Shown: positions 6,868-61,689 of the stretch, one piece after another
Layout: each line of letters begins with the position of its first letter
Numbering within the stretch: the stretch's first letter is position 1
DNA from: Naegleria gruberi
Lineage: Eukaryota
Length of the DNA: 64,000 nt
Strand: one strand, 5' to 3'
Assembly: GCA_000004985.1 (NCBI GenBank)
Contig: GG738874.1
Made by a program: the position numbers and the translations under genes
Notes under the pieces: generated by a model
Databases searched by the model: none
The model's input: only the letters and a program-made list of their open reading frames with translations
What the model was told of the DNA's origin: nothing

Positions 6868-8611
6868 TTAGAGATTGGATTGAAGTTGGAGGATAACAGT
6901 CTTGAGGGAAGTCCATGCCTTCATTCCCTCTTCTCCTGCTTCTCTACCAAAACCAGATTGTTTAACACCACCAAATTCGGCAACATGCAAAACATTGTGA
7001 TAATTATTGATCCAACAAACTCCACATTTGATTCTGTCAGAGAAGGTGAACATATTGTCAACATTCTTAGTGAGAATGGCAGCTGCCAAACCAAATTCAG
7101 TATTATTACATCTGGTGATAACTTCATCGAGAGTCTTCCATGGCTTCAGAATAGATTGAACTGGACCAAAGATTTCTTCTCTAGCAATACGCATATTATC
7201 ATCAACCTTATTTAAATTGAACAGAGAAAAACAAGTTAAATTATTGTGTGTTAGAATTGAGATAATTGTCAAAATAAACTTACATCATAGAAAATTGTTG
7301 GCTTGACGAAATAACCCTTAGTAGGTAAACCTTCAGAATCACCACCAATTAATAATTTAGCACCTTCCTTTTTACCAATTTCAATATAGCTCTTAACTCT
7401 GTCATATTGTTCCTTGTCAACCAATGGTCCAATATTAGTTTCATCATTCAAATTGTATCCAATCTTGAAAGTGGCGACATGTTCCTTGAGCTTTCTAACA
7501 AATTCATCATAGATATCAGCATGAACAAATGTTCTACTTCCAGCAGTACAAGCTTCACCATTATTATTGAAAATACTGAAAGCAGCAACCTTAACAGCTT
7601 CATCAACATTGACATCAGGACAAACAACAACAGGTGATTTACCACCGAGTTCCAAATGGACTTGTTTCAAATTAGATTCGGCAGCTCCCTTCATGACAAG
7701 ACGACCAACTTCAGTAGATCCTGTGAATGCAATCTTACTGACCTTCTTGTGACTGACGAGTGGAGCACCAGCATTTGGACCATCACCCATAACAACATTG
7801 TAAACACCCTTTGGAATACCAACCTTTTGACAAATGTCAGCAAGTTTGAGTGCAGTCAATGGAGTTTGTTCAGATGGCTTCAAAATGACACAGTTACCCA
7901 TAGCCATAGCAGGAGCAACATTAACCAATGAACACCACATTGGGAAGTTCCATGGAGAAATAACTAGACAAACGACTCAATTATTAAATTCTAATAATGC
8001 TACCTACCACCAACAACACCAACTGGGCTTCTTTGAGTATAAACGTGGAATTTCTTATCAGTAACACAAATTCTTCCACTCAATTTATCAATCCATCCAG
8101 CACTATATCTCCAAGTATCGGTAATACTCTACATTTCCACAAAATAATAATTAATTTTAAATTGTCATATATCCACAAAAACATTCCACAAAATAATTAA
8201 TTGAAATTAATTATATCAATACTACTCCGCATCACATCATCAACCTACTTTAATAACATAACGGTTAACTCCGATAGGTGTACCATTATTAAGTCCTTCC
8301 AACAAGGCCATTTCCTCAACTTGTCTATCCCATTCATCAGCAAGTTTATAAATAAGTTCTTGTCTCTTTTGTGGTTCCATATTTCCCCATTCTCCATTCA
8401 ATGCTTCTTCAGCAGCTTGAACAGCCAATTCAACATCTTGTGCACAACCATCACTAACACTACACAAAACTTGTTCCGTAGCTGGACAAATCAAGTCCAA
8501 CTTTTTTCCGCTCTTACTCTCCACAAATTCACCATTGATGAATTGTTTGAGTTGGGAAGGTTTGATGGCTTCAAATTGCTTCAAAACTTGTACGTGGGAA
8601 ATGTTGCTCAT
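6868..8611 (-). CDS. Aldehyde dehydrogenase (ALDH1/2-like, NAD-dependent). Exons 8611..8249, 8128..8008, 7963..7284, 7206..6868.
   Basis: N-terminus KQFINGEFVESKSGKK...INPATEQV. Motifs ITDTWRYSAGWIDK, ISPWNFPMW, FTGSTEVG, ELGGKSP, GEACTAGSR, EEIFGPV, GLAAAILT, EFGGVKQSGFGRE. Introns 8129..8248 (gtaggt...tgtag), 7964..8007 (gtaggt...ctag) and 7207..7283 (gtaagt...aaataag). All junctions restore the ALDH consensus and the exon lengths keep the frame. Confidence 0.85.
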
Positions 8612-9478
8612 TTTTTTTCAATTCAATTTAAAAATATTTTTGGATTTTTATTTTTTTATGAATATTTTAGGTTTTACGATTTAAGATAGCATTATGTATA
8701 AAACAAAAACAATACACTTTAAATTATTAATAGAAAATTTTAAGATTTTTATGAGGGAATTTTTATACAATATGTACTTCTACTTCCTTAGTTGCCTTAA
8801 TTGGTTCGAATCTATACAGGTGTATAATGGAAGTGAAGGCGCTGAAGCACGCAACGAAATGAATGAAGGAGTTAGCTGAAGAGATTTTCTCTAATGAAAA
8901 GGGAAAATCTGTTGTGTCGTAAACGATAATACGAGAAGAAGCAGCGTGCTTATTGATTTGGATATTTATAAGAAATTTCCATTTTCCAATAGGCATGATC
9001 AAATTTTAAAAACCTTTAACTCTAAAACATTTCAGAAACAGATCGTGTGAGGGGTTATTACTTAGGAATTAAATTTTAGAAAGGAAGTTGGGAATAAAAT
9101 CAGAATACAACCCTATCTCTGTAACTCTAGCGGGTTGGTCCTCTTGAGCCAGAATGAACTTTGATTCTACTAATTCTGAATGTGATACCACTACTATTGC
9201 TGATCACAAAGACAAATTCATTGGGGTTTCCATTTTCAAACAGAATTCAACCTATTTAGAAATGGTGGAGCCAAGTCGGTCCTATCGCTTCTTGTTTACC
9301 TAGAATAGAATGATCTTTATATTAAGGGAAAACGCATTCGATTATCTCTCTTTAATCTCTTTTGTTTTGGCTCCGCTTCGCTGTTGCGAATGAATCAAAA
9401 TTCGGGTTAAAAGCTTGATTTTCATTCTCTGCATACTTTTCACAAATAAAACAAAACAACTCAACAATAAGCAGTAAG

Positions 9479-9808
9479 ATGCAAAGCGTTTTTAAGGTTC
9501 AATCACAAAACTTGATGGCGGTTCAACAAATTCAAGTCTACCTCTGTACACTCATAATCTACTTGCTTAATTCAATGTATAGGTCCCTGGTGTTCGATTT
9601 GGAGGAGTTCTTCATCGTTCATCACTACTCGACATCATTGGAGATTGGCAATATTATGAACACTGAAGAGAAGCAACAATTGAGAAGATTGTCCCTTATT
9701 GATGAGCAGGGATTTATGGATGAGTTATTGTTGAGTTGCTCCGAGGATGAGCAATTTAATTGTTGTCAATGCCTCTGTGGTGCTAACAAATCACAACAAC
9801 TCTCCTAA
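9479..9808 (+). CDS. Hypothetical small protein (109 aa) with a C-terminal CCQCLCG cysteine cluster
   Basis: The ORF has a true ATG at 9479 and sits in an otherwise ORF-free 860-bp spacer. I recognise no domain. The codon usage is only weakly gene-like. Confidence 0.3.
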   Translation: MQSVFKVQSQNLMAVQQIQVYLCTLIIYLLNSMYRSLVFDLEEFFIVHHYSTSLEIGNIMNTEEKQQLRRLSLIDEQGFMDELLLSCSEDEQFNCCQCLCGANKSQQLS

Positions 9809-9973
9809 GAGCAAAATGTCTTGTTTTGGTAGGGATATGGCTCTTCCAAAAGCAAAATCAAAAACACCAATTTAACCAACAGTCGAGAACGAAGAATGAA
9901 TTGTATTTCACAATAGAGTACAGGCCGAGAAATGGCATGTCGATGAAAACAATCTATTCGATGAATAAATTAT

Positions 9974-12900
9974 TTACTTGAATACTTTTACAATTTGAGT
10001 TATTGGTTTTCTACAGGTAGGACATGATTTGTTAGTGAGCTTGTTGGCACAGCCATCACACATTATCATGTGACCACATGGAACCAAAACTACATTAATC
10101 TCCTTATCCATACAAACGATGCAGTGATTATTTTCTTCTTGCTGCTCGTGGTGATGATCAGTAGGTGTGGTGATTTGAGAAATATTGGCTGGTTCTGGAA
10201 TTCTTTCTTCCTCTGCAAGCCAATCTCTATTAGTAAAGATGGATGGGTCCTCTGTTTGGATTCTTGAATTGGATGGAGTTATTCCACTATTAGAAGAAGA
10301 GGATTGATTGTTGTTGTTTGATTGACCTGTGTGTTTTTTTCTAGTTTGTACAATTTCTCTCTTTCTCTCACCGGCAAGGAATGCAGTTCTGTTTGACTTT
10401 TTCATTCTGTAGAGAAGTGAAGAGAGTTTGTCTGTTTCTCTCATTGATGAATCATTTTCACATTGTCTCAAATCTTCATCTAGGTCTTGAGTATTGTTTA
10501 CAAATGCATTCATTTCTTCTTGCTGACCGTATGACTTGGAGACTTCTTCCAAGAGTTTGTTCATACTCAAAAGTTTCAATCTGGCATCTCTAATTTTGCC
10601 ACTTTCAGCAAGAATGGAGCTTTGTAAAACTGCATTTAAGGACAATACAGAAACATCTACATTTTCTAAGGAAACACTTCTGTCAGATGTAATCTTAACT
10701 GGTTGATTAACCACTCTCACATATTTGCATCCGTTTGATGAGGCAGTATAGTAAATTTGTGCTTGAATCAATCCCTTATCCTTCTTATCATCTTTTACTT
10801 CCATTTCAATGGTAACATCTGTCTCAGCTGTTGCACTGCTAATTGATTGAGTAACCATTGAATACTTATCCAATTTAGATACCTCCTGATTCTTTGGTGA
10901 TATTGGATTGGAGAAGAGCATTTGTACTTTAACATCGGTTGCAATAACTGGATTATCAATAATTTGTCTCATTTGCCTTCTTAATTCAACTGGTTTTACA
11001 ATGTTTGTCAAACCTCCAGTATTATCAGCGAGCTTTCCAATTAATGACAAGTTACAGTTTGAGCCCTCAACACCAAAAACATTAATATTAATGCCATACT
11101 CGCAGGATAAGTTTGCAATCTTTGTGCAACACTCTTCTTGATCCTTGATACTTTTAGCTCTCTTTGAAATTTCCTCACTAATACCAGCCAAACCTGTTGT
11201 TGCAACTCCGTCAGTGCACAGGATAATTTTGCTACCTTTTTGCTGACTTGCAATACCCAAACTAACAAGTAAGGCAGGGAACAGTGCTGTAGCACCATCT
11301 TCTGCAATTGAGTAAATATACTCAATCAAATTATCATTGGCAAGTGAAACATTGTTTAGAATAGAGGTTCTATAAGATTGTCCTAACTTGAACAATCCTT
11401 CGAAATTATCAAGTAACACAGCTGGGACACTAGCTCTAGTTTGTGATCTGGCGTCACCAATAATTTGCACATTGCTTGAGAAGGTAACAATGGCTATTCT
11501 CTTATTGGGAGATTCTCTAGCTGTTTCAGTAACTTGAATATCTAGAGCCATCTTGAGACAGTCCATTCTAGAAACATAGGATGAAGATCGACTTTCGTTT
11601 GGAAGAAATTGATTATGAACAGAAACTTCAGATTCTAATCCCAATTCTCTCAGTAAACGTCTATTCTTTTCTTGTTGGTCGGATTGTCTCAAATCCAAAT
11701 TAAGAACAGAGTAGCTTGGTAATTGCTCAGATTGACACATACTGCCAGAGATATCAATACAAAAAACTAGTAAGCCGTCATCATCATTTACAGAACTCTC
11801 TTCCAACTTGTGTTCAATCATTTCTGGAATGGATGAAACATTGGAAGGTAATACATTTTCAGTATCGCAAAATGAGCATTTCCAATGATTTCTCTTTTTT
11901 TCACCATTTAACGCAGCTTTACAATTTGAACAGGTAACAAGAGGGCCTAGAGCTTTTGGACATTCTGCTAAAAGGCCATTCATACACAAGGCAGCAACAT
12001 TGGCATCAGATTTTGGATGTTTGATAGTTTGTTCGTTTGAAAGATCAATAGAGGATGAACAAGCTTGTGAAACTGTTGAGGCAGTCTTTTTTTCACTCTT
12101 CTTGAAAAGTCTCGATAAGAAACCTCCTCCACTAGACTTTTTTTTGCTTGTGGAAGATGATACTGAGCTACTTTGGGCATCATCGAGAGGAACATTTGAA
12201 ACAACTATTTGTTTTCTATAAGAATCCTCCTAATAACATTTGTTTGAAACATGATATTCAAAGAAATTCACTTACACTATAATAATAACATTCAGTAATA
12301 TTCAAAGAAGCAACTTACATTGTTGGGTCGTATTGTTCTACGAACACATTTTGAATGAATTGTGTGCAATAAGCACTTTTTCCTACACCACCAGAGCCAA
12401 CAATAGAAAATCTGTATTCATCCAATCTTCCACACATTCTTACTAGTTCATGAATAGGTTCGTCTACATTAATCCTTTGTTTGGCACTTGTTTCAAAATA
12501 AGGAATGCCCAAACGAAGTGCAACTTCCTTAACTTGTTGTTTTGACACTATTCTCTCCTCTTCCAAATCACTCTTGTTTGCAATAAGTACACAAGGAAAT
12601 GAATCAACATCCTTTGTCCTCAAAATTTGTTCCCAAATAGTTTGACAATCTTCCAACGAACTTGAATCTGTTATCGAAAAAACAATAAGAAAACCATATG
12701 ATGTTCTATAGTATTGATCTCTCAAACTACTATATTCTATTGTTGAGTGAGTGCAAAGAGGTTAGCACACTTGTTAATAATGAGAGACAACAAAAACCAA
12801 CCTTCTTGTCCAGCAGTATCGAGTAAATCAATTAAAGCTACATGATCGGAGCCTCCAGTAGTATTACTTTCACCACCAACAGAAGAATATCCAAGCTGTT

Positions 12901-13045
12901 TTCTTCTAGAATGTGTGTATGCCTTCTTTAATGAGTGAGACTCTTCCAATAATCGGAGAGGAAAGAAATCATATTCTTCATCCTCTTGTTGGTCAGTCTT
13001 CTTCTTGTTGTGATACAATGTTTTGGTAGCCAATTGTAGAGACAT
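9974..13045 (-). CDS. cpRAS-VWA-RING protein. A circularly permuted Ras-like GTPase domain (order G3-G4-G5-G1-G2) is followed by a Ser-rich linker, a zinc finger, a von Willebrand A domain and a C-terminal C3HC4 RING. Exons 13045..12802, 12736..12319, (12276?), 12229..9974.
   Basis: Reading 5' to 3' on the minus strand the motifs appear in this order: LIDLLDTAGQE (G3), RDQYYRTSYGFLIVFSITD, LIANKSD (G4), ETSAK (G5), then in frame DEYRFSIVGSGGVGKS (G1/P-loop) and YDPT(I/M)EDSYRKQIVV (G2/switch I). Intron 12737..12801 joins QE|EYSSLRDQY. VWA MIDAS motif: LLVFCIDISGSMC. RING: CIVCMDKEINVVLVPCGHMIMCDGCANKLTNKSCPTCRKP. The junction from the G2 exon to the downstream exon is non-trivial (see findings). 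Confidence 0.6.
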
Positions 13046-21301: not shown

Positions 21302-24300
21302 CTATGCCAACAATGATCTTCTCTCATCACTTGTTGAAGTCTTATCATAAGACTTTTGGAGAGCATGTTTCGAATTCTTATCCGAATTCATTCTTTCTCT
21401 CACTTTTTGGATACCGAGATTGGATCTGAGTTGTTTGTAAGGCTTCCACTTTCTCTTTTCTCTTTGAAGAAGCTTTTCTAAAATTCTACCAAACCAAGAC
21501 TTATCGTTAGCACATGTAATGGCTTTGATAAAACGTAAAATGTTGTAAATTGTAAAACCTTTGATTAATTGTCTGAAAGGAATTCTCCAAATTAAGAACA
21601 TCTCCCAAAAGTATCCAATAAAGTAGTGAGCTGCACAATATCCAAAGAGACGTAATTTGAATTCCATTGGGAAACTAATAAATTGGAATGCTGTTTTTAA
21701 ATAATGGCATGGTTCAAATAATATGTAAGTGGTAAACAAGTACAATATAGTAAGGAGCAAGACATAGATAAAGTTGTGAGTTATGAGAGGTCTCTTAAAT
21801 GGCTCACTAACACTCTGACTGACAGCTGAATTCAATACTGCAAAGCAACATGCAAGGTATGTAATAGTTGTTTCAAAACTAACAATATTGTCTTTTGGAT
21901 CTTTGTGAAGTGGAGCAGGTTTGTACCATGCTGTATCGAATAAAATTTCAAAGAAAACTCCCAACATTAAAGCAAATCCCCAGAAAATTTGACCAAGCAA
22001 ACTAACAAGAACAAATCTAGAGAAGAGAGATTCTGGTGGTTTTTCCTTATGGAGAGTTTCTGTGGCTTTGGAATTGGCCATCAATAGAACAACAGGTAAA
22101 ATAATGAACATGTCAATATACAAGTATTGTGTGTCACCAATTGTTGCATTTTGTCTATAGATGAGAACGGCCGCAAAGAATTCAAACAAGCTATACAAGG
22201 CCATGTACTTGAACATTTGGAAACTGGAAGAGAGTGCAGCTCTTCCTTCCTTAACTACATCCACAACTGATCGAATTGAATTTTGAACTGATGTAAAAGG
22301 TGCAGCAATACTTGCTTCGGCCTCTGAAAGAGAAACACCCACATGTGCTGCTTTCAAAGCCTCAACATCGTTACTGCCATCTCCACACATTACAGTCATG
22401 TAGCCCATCTTGATCAACTCTTCTACCACCTTCATTTTACCAGAAGGTGAAACTCTAGCATAGATATGGCAACATGAAAGAATAATATGGAGCAATGAAG
22501 GATTCTCAGCATCAACATACTCAATCTTATTTCCTCTTCCCATCTTGGCATTTTCATTGGTCTTTTCCACATAATCCTTGTGTGAGAAAACGATTGTGTC
22601 AAAAATCTCACCAATAATTGCCAATTCAAAGTTTTCATTTCTAAAGTCCTTTCTGATAATTTCACGTGAGGTAAGGGTAGGGGCTTTTGGATCATCAACA
22701 TTTCTCCAAATAATCTTATCATAAACTGCAGGGAGATAATGTTTCATAGGATTGCCTAGTATTGCATTATCGTTAATATCCTCATTGATTGATGGACCAT
22801 TGGTAGTTTGCACATGGTTGATGGCAAGTGCTTCCTTGCTTGCAAATTCAGCCAAATAAAGAGTCTTTCCCTTTGGAAGCATATAACATTTACGAGCAAC
22901 ACAAATTGTCGTGTATGGATTATCGCCAGTAATGACACACGCTCTCAAGTTAGCTTGGGTTAGTGTTCTAATCACAGATGGTGTTTCTGGTTTAAGTTTG
23001 TTTTCCATGCAAATTAAACCAAGGAAATCCAGTTTAGATTCAACTTCCTCTCTTGTGAGCTGGTCAGTATATTTGGCAATAAGAGGATCCACCAAGTTTC
23101 TTCCAAAAGATTCAGGTTTTTCTAGAATTTTTAACAATTCCTTATACTTGATAACTCTGCTGGCACATCCTAGAACACGATAACCCTTATGTGCATACTT
23201 GTAGAGAACCTTTTCAAAATCACCTGGAATTGTTTGAGCATGTGAGAGAGTCTTGAGCATTTCAGCGGAACCCTTAACGAAAAAGTGCAAATCTCCAGTA
23301 TTTTCGTTTTGTGCTACCACTGACATTCTTTGCAAACCAGATTTGAAATCAAAAATCTTGAGGATGATAAATGATGCAGTCTTTTGTGGTGCAGAGATGG
23401 TAATAGAGTTGGTAGACGATGCTTTCTTGTTATTTTGATTGGTACTAGCTTTATCTGATTCGACCAAATCCCAGGTTGTGGCTTCGAATAATTTAACGTC
23501 CAAAGGATCACCTGAATTAAAGTATTATTAATTTGAATTACAATTCGATTTAAAAAAACTTACCCACTAGCTTTCCAAAAACATATGACAAATTGTGACA
23601 ACAAGCCATACAATGAAGTAATGAATTGGTGGCATGCTTTAAATGATTCAACATTTCATTATCCTTAATCAAGTGTTCGAATCCCTTTGGTCCTATTGGA
23701 ACAACGCCATGCAAATCAAGACCATCTCTGGTTAGTGTATTTGTCTTATCGAAACATGCCATATTGACACGCCCACTGACATTAATTCTTGGAGGACTGA
23801 TTATTTGAGTGAATTCAACAAGCAGCGTGTAATAACTTACCTGATACAAAATATTCCCTTTTTCTTGAGTCTAGAAATAGCCATAGAAACACAAACACTC
23901 ATTGAAATAGGCAATGCAGGAGGTACAATAGTAGTTAATAAATCAAAACAAGAAATGATCATTTCACCCAATGGAGCATTCTTAACACTTTGATTGTACA
24001 AACTGTACGAAATACCAGCAATACCAAACAAGAACATCATGAATAAGAATTTCATAGAGTCACTGTAAAAAGAAAATTGGTTTGGCTTGGGATACAAAAT
24101 TGACAAGACCAATTTTCCTTTTGCTGTTTGAAAACCAGTTTGAATAACCATGGCACAAACAATCTCCTCTTCTGAGGATTCATAGAGAGCTGTTGGCTTA
24201 TTCAAAATTACTTGAGTACCAGAGAAGAGAGTATGAGTCTTATCGCGCATACAATTGTACTTTTCTGTTTCAGTTCCAGATTTTGGTATTGGAACTTTCT

Positions 24301-58944: not shown

Positions 58945-61689
58945 TTAATGTTCCAGTGCAACAGACAACTTTTTGTCTCCCACCAAAACCAAATCTGTAC
59001 TAGGGGCCCCCTTTCTAATCTCGTCAAAATTGTTAAAATCAATCATTCCCAAAGCACCACATTTTTGTTGTTCCTTAAAAATCAATCGTTGTTCCCTTAA
59101 AATCTTTTGAGTATTATCCAATGCTCCAAATCGAATTGGCTTTGGAAGTGGTGCTCTCGCATCAACAACTGGTAAGGCATTATGAGGGATTCGTTTTGCA
59201 GGAAGAATAACCTTTACATTCTTATCTTTACCACTTGTCAGCATGACTGTTTTGTTTGTTTCATGTGAGTAAAACATTGTTGGAACATTTGCAGTCTTGA
59301 TTGAGGGATTGTCAGGGGCAACTAGCTCAGCATCAGAGGGTTTGTAAGATGACACATATGGAATTGCCTTCTTTGATTTTGAAAAATCATAATATCTCTT
59401 GGTGTCTCTGGATTTTGGTAACTTGATGTGATTGTCCATTTCCGTGGCAACACTTGAAAGTGTCTCTTCCTGAACATCTTTGTAAGGTATTGGAGAGCTT
59501 TCCAAATTCATCAACTCTGTATCATCGAAACTTATATCTGCTACAATTTCCTTCTTCTTCTCAGGTGATCTGAAAATCGATCTAGTAGGAGAAACAATTC
59601 TGTTGGATAAATATGACTTTCTTGAATAGGGCACAAGATTAATGGTTGGTGTGTATTTCAGATCAAATCTGTTGGATGAGGGCGAATCCTTATCTCCAAA
59701 GGTAACAAACAAGAATTGGCGAGGTTGATCATGATATTGCAAGTGCTCAGCCATATCTTGCTTTGGTTGAAATTTGGGTTTTTTCAGAAATTCGTATTTT
59801 GCTTCCCTTTCGGAATACATTTGATTATTTTCTGAGGGTTGATGAGCATGGGGAGCATCAGTCAGATGGTGTGAAACAATGAATAATCTTTCATTCTCTG
59901 AAAATGAAACAATAAAATCAAAAACAGGAAATGAAAGGTCCTGGCAATCATGTATAGTTATTCTCAAATGCTGATTGAGAACTGATTTAACAGTGCTTTC
60001 GTTTAGCCATGGTAAACATTCTACGCACGCAAAAATACAATCGTCAGAATGGTATTCTGGAACAATATAGCCTAGCTCATTAACCTACAAAATAGTTTCA
60101 ATACAAGTAATTAAGTAAATATACATACTGGTTGATTATATAATGTTACAAATAAATTAGAATTGAAAGTATCAATGTGGATATAGTGAGGGGAACGGAG
60201 TTGGGAAATACTAATGTTAAACCTAGATTTCAATAATTTATATTCTGATGTGGAATAATTTACAAGCCTCATCTGAAAAAGATTAATTAAACTATGTGAA
60301 ATGGTAAAAATACTTACTCTAAATACATAGAATAGTGGGTGGTGTGGATCGAGTTGAGAAATGTTAGTGTTTTTCAGAAAACCCAATTCACTTCTTTTCC
60401 TTTTTAGCATATCTTCATCAGGAGTTATGGATAGAGGAGGAAACTCTCTACTATTAGTATTCAGTCTATTATTCATGGATGATAAACTCTGAAATACGGA
60501 GGGTATTTGAGAGAGTGACATATCATGTGTTTGAGAATGGCCATTGTGACCATATCGTCTCATGTTTTCCTTATGTTTTTTGGAGACCTCCTTCTCGATT
60601 TGTTCTCTCGTTTTGATATCTATATTTACAACTTGATCAAATAAGCTTGGTTGTTTTGAGCACATGTCGGGCTTCTCAATAATTTTTGGCTCTGTCTTTC
60701 TTTTCGTAAGTTTGCTTCTTGGAGTCCCTGTTGCACTGCCAGGATCTTGAACAGGTGTCTTTGGAGAGGCAACTTCTGATCTATCAGTACTTGGAGGGTC
60801 AGAGGAGAGAGCTGCCAACTCTTCGTTTTTTTTCTCCCTCACATAGGCAAGATATTCTCCCAATGATAAATCATAGGGAAGATCAATTACTGACTCTGAC
60901 ATTTCTAGAACTGGAATTGTACGAGTCGATTTTTCTGGTGTCTTTTTTACACCTCTCAGAGCTGCAACAGGGGAAGGCAATAACAGACCAGCTCCAGATG
61001 TAATTTTAGGTTTGTACAACTTAGCCTTTCCAAACATTCTGAATCTGTAACCAACAGCAATTTGTTGCTCCTCCTCTTTCCTCAAATCCTTCTTTTGTTT
61101 TTCAGCCCTGACAAGATTTTTCTCAATCAGGACGAATCTAGTGTTACAATCATCCAAATGACTCAAATCTTTCCAAAATCTATGAATTGAAAATTATTTC
61201 AATTAAAATTAATTACCATTTTAAAGACACAACCTACCTGTGTCTCACCCTTAAGGGTATTGAGGATTTTGTCACCTCTCCTTGATTTTCACTATCCAAA
61301 TGCTCCTTAATAGCTTTAAGAGTAGTAGAAACTCCATCAACTTCATACTTTTTAGAAATGGATTGATGCTTCTCCTCTACTCCTCTCCACTGCCTGTCAA
61401 CTTCCCTAAAATTAATAGGCAACGAATGGTCATCATTTTTCAAATATTTTTTACTATTCTTTACAAATAATTCCAAACTTTCATCAGCACTCGCCTTAAC
61501 ATTCACTTGCTTATTTGTAGCACTCGCAGATCCTCTTCTTTTCTTTTTTTGTGATGACAAAATTGACCTCCTCTCCAATTCACTCCTCCTATTTTCACCT
61601 ATTGAATCCTCATCCAACTCACTCACATTTCCAATTATCCTCACTGTTGAAGTGGGAGAAGTAACCGTGGTCGGACTGATGGATTGCAT
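58945..61689 (-). CDS. Hypothetical protein, 3 exons: 61689..61238, 61180..60318, 60084..58945
   Basis: Introns 61181..61237 (gtaggt...ttcatag) and 60085..60317 (gtaagt...ttttgtag) join three minus-strand ORFs in frame (...RVRH|R|FWKDLSHLDDC... and ...LFYVFR|VNELGYIVPEY...). True ATG at 61689 (MQSISPT). The product is Ser/Lys-rich with a possible C2-like beta-sandwich segment. No confident family. Confidence 0.5.

What the first reader, a model, noticed from the sequence alone, without database searches (positions are those of the whole stretch)
12230..12318. Possible 1-nt micro-exon / nested (recursive) intron exactly at the Ras DPT|I|EDSY junction
The G1/G2 exon ends ...CCA ACA AT|gtaagt (phase 2). 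The downstream exon must begin at ttattag|GAG GAT TCT TAT AGA AAA CAA (E D S Y R K Q) because a TAG sits immediately upstream in frame. A simple donor-to-acceptor join gives ATG AGG ATT ... TAG, which terminates prematurely. Inside the 79-nt interval there is tattatag|t|gtaagtgaa. Removing gtaagttg...tattatag (12318..12277) and then gtaagtga...ttattag (12275..12230) leaves a single T at 12276. That T makes ATT (Ile) and restores the canonical Ras sequence YDPTIEDSYRKQ exactly. It would be a zero/one-nucleotide ratchet-point exon, as in recursive splicing. A single-base sequencing error is the alternative.
Basis: seen in the sequence. Interest (0 to 1): 0.6.

Follow-up and report, generated by a model that had tools for sequence, protein, structure and literature searches.

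The report
One-nucleotide exon in Naegleria CPRas
In the Naegleria gruberi gene for a circularly permuted Ras GTPase, a single T between two tiny sister introns most likely acts as a one-base exon that completes an invariant isoleucine codon; this would be a rare third case of the smallest possible exon, the public annotation misses it, and no RNA data could be reached to prove it.

Summary
On the minus strand, exon 2 ends ...CCA ACA AT. It is followed by a 42-nt GTAAGT...TATAG unit (12318-12277), one T (12276), a 46-nt GTAAGT...TTATTAG unit (12275-12230), then GAG GAT TCT TAT... The window is Naegleria gruberi NEG-M and the gene is CPRas, a circularly permuted Ras with zinc finger, VWA-like region and RING. 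Of all canonical one- and two-intron solutions, only removal of both units with the T kept gives YDPTIEDSYRKQ, a motif gapless in 113 of 113 homologues. An independent sample 99.2% identical has the same layout, so a sequencing error is excluded. The last exon shows 9 synonymous to 1 non-synonymous change, so it is translated in that frame. The two mini-introns are diverged copies of one another. It deletes EDSYR, equivalent to Ras residues 37-41. Elias and Novotny (2008) published the corrected protein without describing the exon. No transcript data could be reached. Nuclear 1-nt exons are documented only in Arabidopsis APC11 and Fusarium CYP621A, so this is a probable new member of a known, very rare kind.

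The parts
12802..13045 (-). Exon 1 of N. gruberi CPRas (ATG at 13045-13043), ending in the G3 motif DTAGQE
   Evidence: The model built with this exon and the 103-nt intron matches XP_002676121.1 exactly, so the start codon and intron 1 agree with RefSeq.
12737..12801 (-). Intron 1, 65 nt, GTTGGT...CAATAG, phase 1
12319..12736 (-). Exon 2: G4 (NKSD), G5 (ETSAK), G1 (GSGGVGKS) and the start of G2 (YDPT + AT)
   Evidence: No differences from the independent sample over the 399 nt compared.
12277..12318 (-). Mini-intron A, 42 nt (45 nt in the second sample), GTAAGT...TATTATAG, 24% GC, no internal AG
12276..12276 (-). Proposed single-nucleotide exon: T, third base of the ATT codon for the residue equivalent to Ras Ile36
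12230..12275 (-). Mini-intron B, 46 nt, GTAAGT...TGTTATTAG, 24% GC, no internal AG
9974..12229 (-). Last exon (751 codons plus TAA): EDSYRKQ..., zinc finger, VWA/Sec23-trunk-like region, C-terminal RING
   Evidence: 9 synonymous to 1 non-synonymous difference between samples.
12216..12229 (-). GAGGATTCTTATAG: codons for EDSY(R). The public annotation treats these as the 3' end of a single 103-nt intron (acceptor TTCTTATAG|A).
12298..12309 (-). TTCTTTGAATAT, repeat block 1 in mini-intron A
12254..12265 (-). TTCTTTGAATAT, repeat block 1 in mini-intron B, at the same offset from the donor within 1 nt
12283..12292 (-). AATGTTATTA, repeat block 2 in mini-intron A
12231..12240 (-). AATGTTATTA, repeat block 2 in mini-intron B

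Best explanation
The T at 12276 is a constitutive one-nucleotide exon of the Naegleria gruberi CPRas gene. It is flanked by two very short, independently recognisable U2-type GT-AG introns, A (42 nt) and B (46 nt), which are diverged copies of one ancestral intron. Shown: the sequence; that it is real in two samples; that this is the unique canonical route to the invariant motif; that the downstream frame is under purifying selection; that A and B are related. Inferred mechanism: Naegleria introns in this window are mostly 44-65 nt, so splice sites are probably paired across the intron (intron definition), and each GTAAGT donor pairs with the first downstream AG. The 3' splice site of A and the 5' splice site of B are 1 nt apart, so two spliceosomes cannot be assembled on both at once. 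The introns must therefore be removed one after the other, in either order. A first leaves ...ACAATT|GTAAGTGAA. B first leaves ...TATTATAG|TGAGGAT. Both intermediates are ordinary substrates. The mature mRNA reads CCA ACA ATT GAG GAT TCT TAT AGA and encodes YDPTIEDSYR, the switch I effector loop and the start of strand beta-2. Pairing donor A with acceptor B skips the T and gives a stop eight codons later, so that product would be unproductive. Inferred origin: a copy of the intron arose 1 nt from its parent, either by exact intron-copy insertion or by tandem duplication plus a 1-nt change. A pure tandem duplication of (T + intron) cannot derive from an in-frame ancestor.
For: Frame arithmetic. 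Exhaustive enumeration of 26 single and 59 double canonical solutions, with only 12318-12277 plus 12275-12230 giving YDPTIEDSYRKQ. 113 of 113 cpRas homologues with a G1-G2 region carry DPTIEDS[Y/F] with no gap and an invariant Ile. Both heterolobosean orthologues encode PTIEDSYRKQ uninterrupted. Gapless alignment to Rap1b/HRas puts the T in the Ile36 codon. The product is identical to the published corrected NgrCPRas. The same layout occurs in an independent 99.2%-identical sample, with variants only inside A and B. Exon 3 shows 9 synonymous to 1 non-synonymous change, P = 7e-6 under neutrality. A and B match other inferred introns of the window in length, composition and lack of internal AG. 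A and B share colinear exact blocks of 12 and 8-10 nt; 0 of 20,000 shuffles reach the 20-nt total. The Ras HMM scores the G1-G2 segment 40.2 bits, against 38.2 for the Met variant and 33.6 for the annotated deletion. Precedents show spliceosomes can process 1-nt exons: Arabidopsis APC11 by mutagenesis and cDNA (PMC4674806) and Fusarium CYP621A by RNA-seq reads (PMC12940212). In short-intron fungi the sites defining the smallest intron are used first (PMC7138796).
Against: No cDNA, EST or RNA-seq evidence could be reached. The 972-aa product is absent from the 15-billion-protein collection. No transcript-derived fragment spans the junction. The spliced-junction pattern was not found in metagenome contigs. 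A canonical in-frame alternative, the 103-nt intron, exists and is the public annotation. At 42 nt, intron A is at or slightly below the shortest well-supported introns in this window (44 nt), and those comparison introns were inferred by joining open frames, not from transcripts. Only two closely related samples carry the arrangement, and no sister species was available to show long-term conservation of the T and its flanking sites. Global alignment of the A and B cores is not significant by itself (p = 0.30).
Confidence: 0.8

Rival explanations
1. The public annotation is right: one canonical 103-nt intron (GTAAGT at 12318 to TTCTTATAG| at 12216) is removed. This gives a 967-aa protein reading YDPTI-KQIVV, and the EDSYR codons are an intronic relic.
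For: GT-AG with a perfect donor and in frame. It is exactly XP_002676121.1 / EFC43377.1 / D2VIL5. It needs no unusual exon. It could well exist as a minor isoform.
Against: It deletes five residues (Ras 37-41) that are gapless in 113 of 113 homologues, while G1, G3, G4 and G5 remain perfect and the gene is under purifying selection. It must skip two well-placed upstream AGs, each the first AG after a GTAAGT. The TATAG acceptor is simply the codons TAT AGA, also present in Willaertia. A and B have diverged to 20 of 37 matching inner columns, yet the 15 nt encoding EDSYR are still intact and in frame, which is unexpected for neutral intron sequence of the same age (inference). The Ras HMM score is lower, 33.6 against 40.2 bits. 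Elias and Novotny flagged this model as an incorrect prediction.
Confidence: 0.08
2. Donor A is spliced directly to acceptor B (89 nt), so the mRNA is frameshifted (PTMRILIENK*). The locus would then be a pseudogene, or would make only a truncated GTPase.
For: Both sites are strong and canonical, and it is the simplest single intron. Some such skipping probably does occur.
Against: A 751-codon open frame follows in the EDSYRKQ frame. It shows 9 synonymous to 1 non-synonymous change between two samples, P = 7e-6 under neutrality, so that frame is translated.
Confidence: 0.04
3. A single 88-nt intron with one non-canonical boundary (GT...TA or TA...AG) is removed, giving PTMEDSY.
For: It restores the frame with one splicing event (sequence arithmetic).
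Against: It needs a non-canonical dinucleotide although perfect canonical sites are available. It replaces the Ile that is invariant in 113 of 113 homologues with Met. It ignores the improbable internal TAG-T-GTAAGT. The HMM score is slightly lower.
Confidence: 0.03
4. A sequencing or assembly error of one base, with the real gene having one ordinary intron; or RNA-level recoding such as ribosomal frameshifting or nucleotide insertion editing.
For: One-base errors are common in draft genomes in general.
Against: An independent sample assembled twice (ENA and Logan) has the same structure while differing at 0.8% of positions elsewhere. No slippery heptamer is present at the junction (read from the sequence). 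Nuclear insertion editing is not known in Heterolobosea (general knowledge, not tested).
Confidence: 0.02

Closest known systems
Single-nucleotide exon of Arabidopsis thaliana APC11 (Guo and Liu 2015, PMC4674806)
   Same: One base flanked by canonical AG and GT. It is required for the reading frame and was missed by the reference annotation. The proposed mechanism is intron definition with sequential removal of the two introns.
   Different: There the base is an A lying 333 nt into a 422-nt interval, and the case was proven by cDNA sequencing and mutagenesis. Here the flanking introns are 42 and 46 nt, are paralogous to each other, and no RNA evidence is available.
Single-nucleotide exon of Fusarium CYP621A P450 genes (Nelson and Syed 2026, PMC12940212)
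   Same: It was inferred in the same way: two exons whose phases cannot be joined, an intronless homologue as length marker, a conserved motif (PKG there, PTIEDSY here) restored by one base in an AG-N-GT context, and a total interval about twice the usual intron length.
   Different: That case is conserved in 20 orthologues and confirmed by SRA reads. The Naegleria case is seen in two near-identical samples only and is absent from the two available orthologues, so it looks like a lineage-specific gain.
Zero-nucleotide recursive splice sites (ratchet points) of Drosophila and vertebrate long introns
   Same: A 3' splice site immediately followed by a 5' splice site, with obligatorily stepwise removal.
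   Different: Ratchet points leave no nucleotide in the mRNA and subdivide very long introns. Here one base is retained and the whole interval is 89 nt.
Spliceosomal twin introns (stwintrons) and complex intervening sequences of fungi (PMC5587772, PMC7138796)
   Same: Two U2 introns in one short interval are removed by consecutive reactions, with the smallest-intron-first rule. Origins by local duplication of intron elements have been proposed, and these structures are linked to 1-nt intron shifts.
   Different: In a stwintron the internal intron interrupts a splice signal of the external one, which exists only after the first reaction. Here all four splice sites are intact in the primary transcript, and the units are side by side with an exonic base between them.
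cpRAS / CPRas proteins (Elias and Novotny 2008, PMC2430557)
   Same: This is the N. gruberi member itself, with G3-G4-G5-G1-G2 order, zinc finger, VWA and C-terminal RING. My translation equals their corrected sequence.
   Different: Their paper corrected the protein but did not describe the gene structure that yields it.

Membership tests
Single-nucleotide spliceosomal exon | One base bounded upstream by a canonical acceptor (AG) and downstream by a canonical donor (GT) | tested here: met
   TATTATAG|T|GTAAGT at 12278-12270 on the minus strand. The same is seen in the independent sample.
Single-nucleotide spliceosomal exon | The base is required to join the flanking exons in frame and to reproduce the conserved protein | tested here: met
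   It is the only canonical solution giving YDPTIEDSYRKQ. The motif is invariant in 113 of 113 homologues.
Single-nucleotide spliceosomal exon | The genomic sequence is correct (re-sequencing) | tested here: met
   Two assemblies of an independent sample, 99.2% identical, share the arrangement.
Single-nucleotide spliceosomal exon | The base is present in mature mRNA (cDNA or RNA-seq) | not testable with these tools
   Tried by exact protein look-ups, a junction-peptide search and a spliced-junction DNA pattern. Nothing was found either way.
Single-nucleotide spliceosomal exon | Each flanking intron is a plausible stand-alone intron for this organism | tested here: met
   42 and 46 nt against 44-65 nt for other inferred introns in the window; similar GC; GTAAGT donors; first-AG acceptors. 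The comparison introns are inferred, not annotated.
Recursive splicing ratchet point (zero-nt exon) | Juxtaposed AG|GT with no nucleotide retained, regenerating a 5' splice site within a long intron | tested here: not met
   One T is retained and the interval is 89 nt. Only the sequential logic is shared.
Stwintron (spliceosomal twin intron) | An internal intron interrupts the donor, branch point or acceptor of an external intron, which becomes functional only after the first excision | tested here: not met
   Both donors (GTAAGT) and both acceptors are intact in the unspliced sequence. The one nested parse tried by hand (internal intron starting at GTGTAA) hits a stop, and the only two-intron solution giving the conserved motif is the side-by-side one.
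cpRAS (circularly permuted Ras) protein family | GTPase motifs in the order G3-G4-G5-G1-G2 | tested here: met
   DTAGQE, NKSD, ETSAK, GSGGVGKS, YDPT in that order. The Pfam Ras model matches in two stretches, the first covering profile positions 44-159.
cpRAS (circularly permuted Ras) protein family | Type-1 architecture: cpRAS, four-Cys zinc finger, VWA domain (plus RING in Naegleria) | tested here: met
   RING 2.7e-16; Sec23 trunk, VWA_2 and zf-Sec23_Sec24 weak hits. The sequence is identical to the published NgrCPRas.

The most novel reading that the evidence does not exclude
The locus is a preserved snapshot of how a one-base exon is born: an intron made an exact copy of itself one nucleotide away from the parent copy, by reverse-splicing-type insertion or by local duplication with a compensating change. 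This turned one intron into two and stranded a codon's third base between them. Because donor A can also pair with acceptor B, inclusion or skipping of the single T would act as a built-in on/off switch (productive against premature stop) for the only CPRas GTPase of the organism.
Probability: 0.3. Interest if true: 0.75.

Novelty: new member of a known kind. Interest (0 to 1): 0.55.

Why it matters
The searchable literature documents only two nuclear one-nucleotide exons, one in a plant and one in a fungus. The 2026 Fusarium paper calls itself the second example. A case in a heterolobosean amoeba would suggest that splicing around a single base is a general capacity of spliceosomes that define short introns, not a lineage oddity. 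This case also has a feature the others do not report: the two flanking introns are recognisable copies of each other. That ties the origin of such an exon to local intron duplication and gives a concrete model for intron gain and one-nucleotide intron shifts. In practical terms, the RefSeq and UniProt entry for the N. gruberi CPRas (XP_002676121.1, D2VIL5) lacks five residues of the Ras effector loop, and gene predictors will keep producing such errors unless 1-nt exons are allowed.

Tried and rejected
1. Transcript evidence was sought without success. The exact look-up of the 972-aa product found it absent, while the 967-aa product is the RefSeq entry. A junction-peptide homology search found no N. 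gruberi fragments. A look-up of the NEG-M 669-aa downstream ORF found nothing on record. A DNA pattern matching any of three spliced forms gave 0 hits in metagenome contigs.
2. Closer relatives in JGI metagenomes: none found, so the ancestral single-intron state could not be seen.
3. RNA structure across the interval: none beyond chance, z = 0.27.
4. Similarity of A or B to the introns of the N. lovaniensis or Willaertia orthologues: chance level, longest shared words 5-6 nt, so there is no sign of a moved intron.
5. Other micro-exon candidates in the window: all lie inside continuously open ORFs and are artefacts.
6. The second AG-N-GTAAGT, near 60320 on the minus strand, lies within coding sequence of a long ORF.
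7. AG|GTAAGT at 23841/23840 is an ordinary exon end in a P-type ATPase gene.
8. A nested (stwintron-like) parse was tried by hand and hits a stop; the enumeration found no other route to the motif.
9. A pure tandem duplication of (T + intron) was rejected as the sole origin, because its ancestor would be out of frame (reasoning from the sequence).
10. The global alignment of the A and B cores is not significant alone (p = 0.30). The paralogy claim rests on the colinear exact blocks.
11. Literature searches for the accession numbers, the sample identifiers, and Naegleria together with micro-exons found nothing.
12. Structure prediction of the two products was considered and not run, because conservation already discriminates better than a model would.
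Full report
**Observation.** The minus strand of the window between 12340 and 12200 reads ...TAC GAC CCA ACA AT | GTAAGTTGCTTCTTTGAATATTACTGAATGTTATTATTATAG | T | GTAAGTGAATTTCTTTGAATATCATGTTTCAAACAAATGTTATTAG | GAG GAT TCT TAT AGA AAA CAA.... Joining the first donor to the last acceptor gives PTMRILIENK followed by a stop. Removing only one unit, or neither, also meets a stop. Keeping the T gives ...VEQYDPTIEDSYRKQIVV... and a 972-codon open frame.

**What the gene is.** The model is exon 1 (13045-12802), a 65-nt intron, exon 2 (12736-12319), the interval in question, and a 751-codon last exon (12229-9974). It encodes a Ras-like GTPase with motifs in the order G3 (DTAGQE), G4 (NKSD), G5 (ETSAK), G1 (GSGGVGKS), G2 (YDPT). 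A four-cysteine zinc finger, a VWA/Sec23-trunk-like region and a C-terminal RING finger follow. Homology searching places it in the 'circularly permutated Ras protein' family. The closest named relatives are Naegleria lovaniensis (51% identity) and Willaertia magna (46%). The 972-aa translation is identical, residue for residue, to the 'corrected version of jgi|Naegr1|68720' that Elias and Novotny published in 2008 as the N. gruberi CPRas (PMC2430557 supplement). The window is therefore N. gruberi strain NEG-M. [quoted passage not shown] The word intron does not occur in its main text, so the one-base exon implied by their protein was never described.

A systematic scan for introns joining open frames showed that the donor at 12318 can also pair with the acceptor TTCTTATAG| at 12216. 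This gives a canonical 103-nt intron that is in frame and yields YDPTI-KQIVV, deleting EDSYR. An exact-sequence look-up showed that this 967-aa product is precisely the public annotation: EFC43377.1, XP_002676121.1, UniProt D2VIL5. The 972-aa product is absent from a collection of about 15 billion proteins. The real question is therefore which of two canonical solutions the cell uses.

**Not a sequencing error.** Two assemblies (ENA and Logan) of run ERR1078381 contain the locus at 99.2% identity over 4.8 kb, so they come from a different isolate. The junction has the same architecture. The only differences in the interval are a 3-nt insertion inside unit A and a G>C change inside unit B. All four splice sites and the T are unchanged.

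**The downstream frame is translated.** Between the two samples the last exon carries 10 substitutions, 9 synonymous and 1 non-synonymous. Under neutrality 79% of changes would be non-synonymous, so P = 7e-6. This excludes a pseudogene and excludes the frameshifted simple join as the main product. Variant density is about six times higher in A plus B (2 events in 88 nt) than in the exons (10 in 2,652 nt). That fits intronic status, but the sample is small (Fisher p = 0.055).

**Choosing between the 1-nt exon and the 103-nt intron.**
- Family conservation: all 113 homologues with a recognisable G1-G2 region carry DPTIEDS[Y/F] with no gap and with Ile invariant. The two heterolobosean orthologues encode PTIEDSYRKQ on uninterrupted DNA.
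- Position on Ras: the segment aligns without gaps to Rap1b and HRas. The T completes the codon of the residue equivalent to Ile36, and the annotated intron would delete residues 37-41, which are the end of switch I and the start of strand beta-2 (residue roles from established Ras knowledge).
- Uniqueness: among 26 single-intron and 59 two-intron canonical solutions that keep a frame open, exactly one gives YDPTIEDSYRKQ. That solution is 12318-12277 plus 12275-12230.
- Splice-site logic: A and B contain no internal AG, so each GTAAGT is followed by its acceptor as the first AG. The 103-nt intron would have to skip two well-placed AGs. Its acceptor TATAG is simply the codons TAT AGA, which Willaertia also uses.
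- Age argument (inference): A and B have diverged to 20 matches in 37 inner alignment columns, yet the 15 nt encoding EDSYR remain intact and in frame. That is unexpected if those bases had been neutral intron sequence for as long.
- Profile scores: the Ras profile scores the G1-G2 segment 40.2 bits with IEDSYR, 38.2 with a Met variant and 33.6 with the annotated deletion.

**Are A and B credible introns?** Other introns inferred in this window are 44, 44, 44, 48, 52, 56, 58, 65 and 65 nt long, 17-37% GC, mostly start with GTAAGT, GTATGT or GTAGGT, and have few or no internal AGs. Willaertia has a 43-nt intron in the orthologous gene. A (42 nt, or 45 nt in the other sample) and B (46 nt), both 24% GC, sit at the short end of this range. 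These comparison introns were inferred by joining open frames, not taken from transcripts. GTAAGT occurs only 24 times on both strands of the window, and AG-N-GTAAGT twice (about 1.3 expected). The chance of such a site inside this 89-nt gap is therefore about 1e-3.

**A and B are copies of each other.** Beyond the splice signals they share TTCTTTGAATAT at the same distance from the donor (within 1 nt) and AATGTTATTA next to the acceptor. A 12-nt common word arises in 0.06% of shuffles, and the longest word shared among other introns is 9 nt. The colinear two-block total of 20 nt was reached by none of 20,000 shuffles. A global alignment of the cores is not significant on its own (p = 0.30), so the middle parts have diverged. 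The orthologues' introns are unrelated to A and B and lie elsewhere. Willaertia has one at phase 1 at AYT|V (L004 3584-3626). N. lovaniensis has one at phase 0 at LQF|IQG (L003 3634-3704). Acanthamoeba and Balamuthia share a phase-1 intron inside the Asp33 codon. Dictyostelium purpureum has a phase-0 intron between Thr35 and Ile36. Capsaspora has none at this motif. The N. gruberi pair is therefore a lineage-specific gain. A pure tandem duplication of (T + intron) would require an out-of-frame ancestor. The simplest history is an exact intron copy placed 1 nt from its parent; the alternative is a duplication plus a 1-nt change. This is inference.

**Mechanism (inferred).** With introns this short, splice sites are paired across the intron. 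Work on fungal complex introns shows that the sites defining the smallest possible intron are chosen first and that such sequences are removed in consecutive reactions (PMC7138796). The acceptor of A and the donor of B are 1 nt apart, so both cannot be occupied at once, and the two introns must be removed one after the other. Either order leaves an ordinary substrate. This is the model proposed for the Arabidopsis APC11 one-base exon (PMC4674806). No RNA structure stands out in the interval (z = 0.27). Pairing donor A with acceptor B would skip the T and create an early stop. Whether that happens, and whether it is regulated, is unknown.

**Comparison with what is known.** Nuclear one-nucleotide exons have been documented in Arabidopsis APC11 (proven by cDNA and mutagenesis) and in Fusarium CYP621A (20 orthologues, RNA-seq reads; described as 'the second example'). 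The present case was detected by the same logic as the Fusarium one. It differs in the tiny size and the paralogy of the flanking introns, in its host lineage, and in lacking RNA proof. It is not a zero-length recursive ratchet point, because a base is kept and the interval is 89 nt. It is not a stwintron, because all four splice sites are intact before any splicing and the units are adjacent rather than nested. No paper in the searchable library links Naegleria with micro-exons or cites this locus.

**What could not be done.** No transcript data were reachable and no closer relatives were found. The claim therefore rests on comparative and population evidence.

**Verdict.** I put 0.8 on the one-base exon being the productive splice form, 0.08 on the annotated 103-nt intron as the sole productive form (it may coexist as a minor isoform), and small values on T-skipping, non-canonical splicing, and error or recoding. 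This is a probable new member of a known and very rare kind, and the public annotation is probably wrong. Interest is 0.55.

Noticed in passing
window 12216-12318 (minus strand): The RefSeq/UniProt model of this gene (XP_002676121.1, EFC43377.1, D2VIL5; 967 aa) uses a single 103-nt intron and so lacks EDSYR, equivalent to Ras residues 37-41. The 972-aa form published in a 2008 supplement is not in the protein collection searched.
   Followed up: yes
window 9974-13045 (minus strand): The Ras domain is circularly permuted (G3-G4-G5-G1-G2) and fused to a zinc finger, a VWA-like region and a RING finger. The finding calls it simply 'Ras'. It is the known N. gruberi CPRas.
   Followed up: yes
L003:3634-3704, L004:3584-3626, L005 about 1920-2042, L006 about 2120-2218 and about 2250 onward, L008 about 1279-1348: Introns around the switch I coding region sit at a different position in almost every cpRas gene examined: phase 1 in Asp33 in Acanthamoeba and Balamuthia, phase 0 after Thr35 in D. 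purpureum, further upstream in Willaertia and N. lovaniensis, and none at this motif in Capsaspora. This short stretch looks like a hotspot of intron turnover.
   Followed up: partly
L003:5551-6059: The annotated N. lovaniensis orthologue (P0003, 799 aa, ends at L003:5602) lacks the C-terminal part. Yet open frames downstream encode the conserved ...RMKKANMTNFLAGARKRDIV... segment and a RING finger (CVVCMDREINVVLIPCGHLIMCESCANQL...). The model is probably truncated by missed introns or by frameshifts in the assembly.
   Followed up: no
window about 60312-60320 (minus strand): This is the only other AG-N-GTAAGT in the window (TTTAG A GTAAGT). It lies inside a continuously open frame upstream of a 44-nt intron (60128-60085) and appears to be coding sequence, not a splice element.
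   Followed up: partly
window 23797-23840 (minus strand): An ordinary 44-nt GTAAGT...AATCAG intron in a P-type ATPase gene (...GIFCIS|PPRINV...CFDKTNTLT). The upstream exon ends in AG, giving AG|GTAAGT, but there is no zero-length exon.
   Followed up: yes
whole window: GTAAGT is not enriched overall (24 observed against about 22 expected on both strands), although seven of the inferred introns outside this junction, plus mini-introns A and B, begin with it. Donors GTATGT, GTAGGT and GTTGGT also occur, and exonic positions next to the splice sites show no obvious consensus.
   Followed up: partly
L001/L002 against window 7920-12717: A metagenome run (ERR1078381, PRJEB11402) contains an N. gruberi-like genome 99.2% identical to NEG-M. 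Differences are concentrated in intergenic sequence downstream of the gene (28 of 42 variant positions). The nature of the sample could not be traced in the literature.
   Followed up: partly
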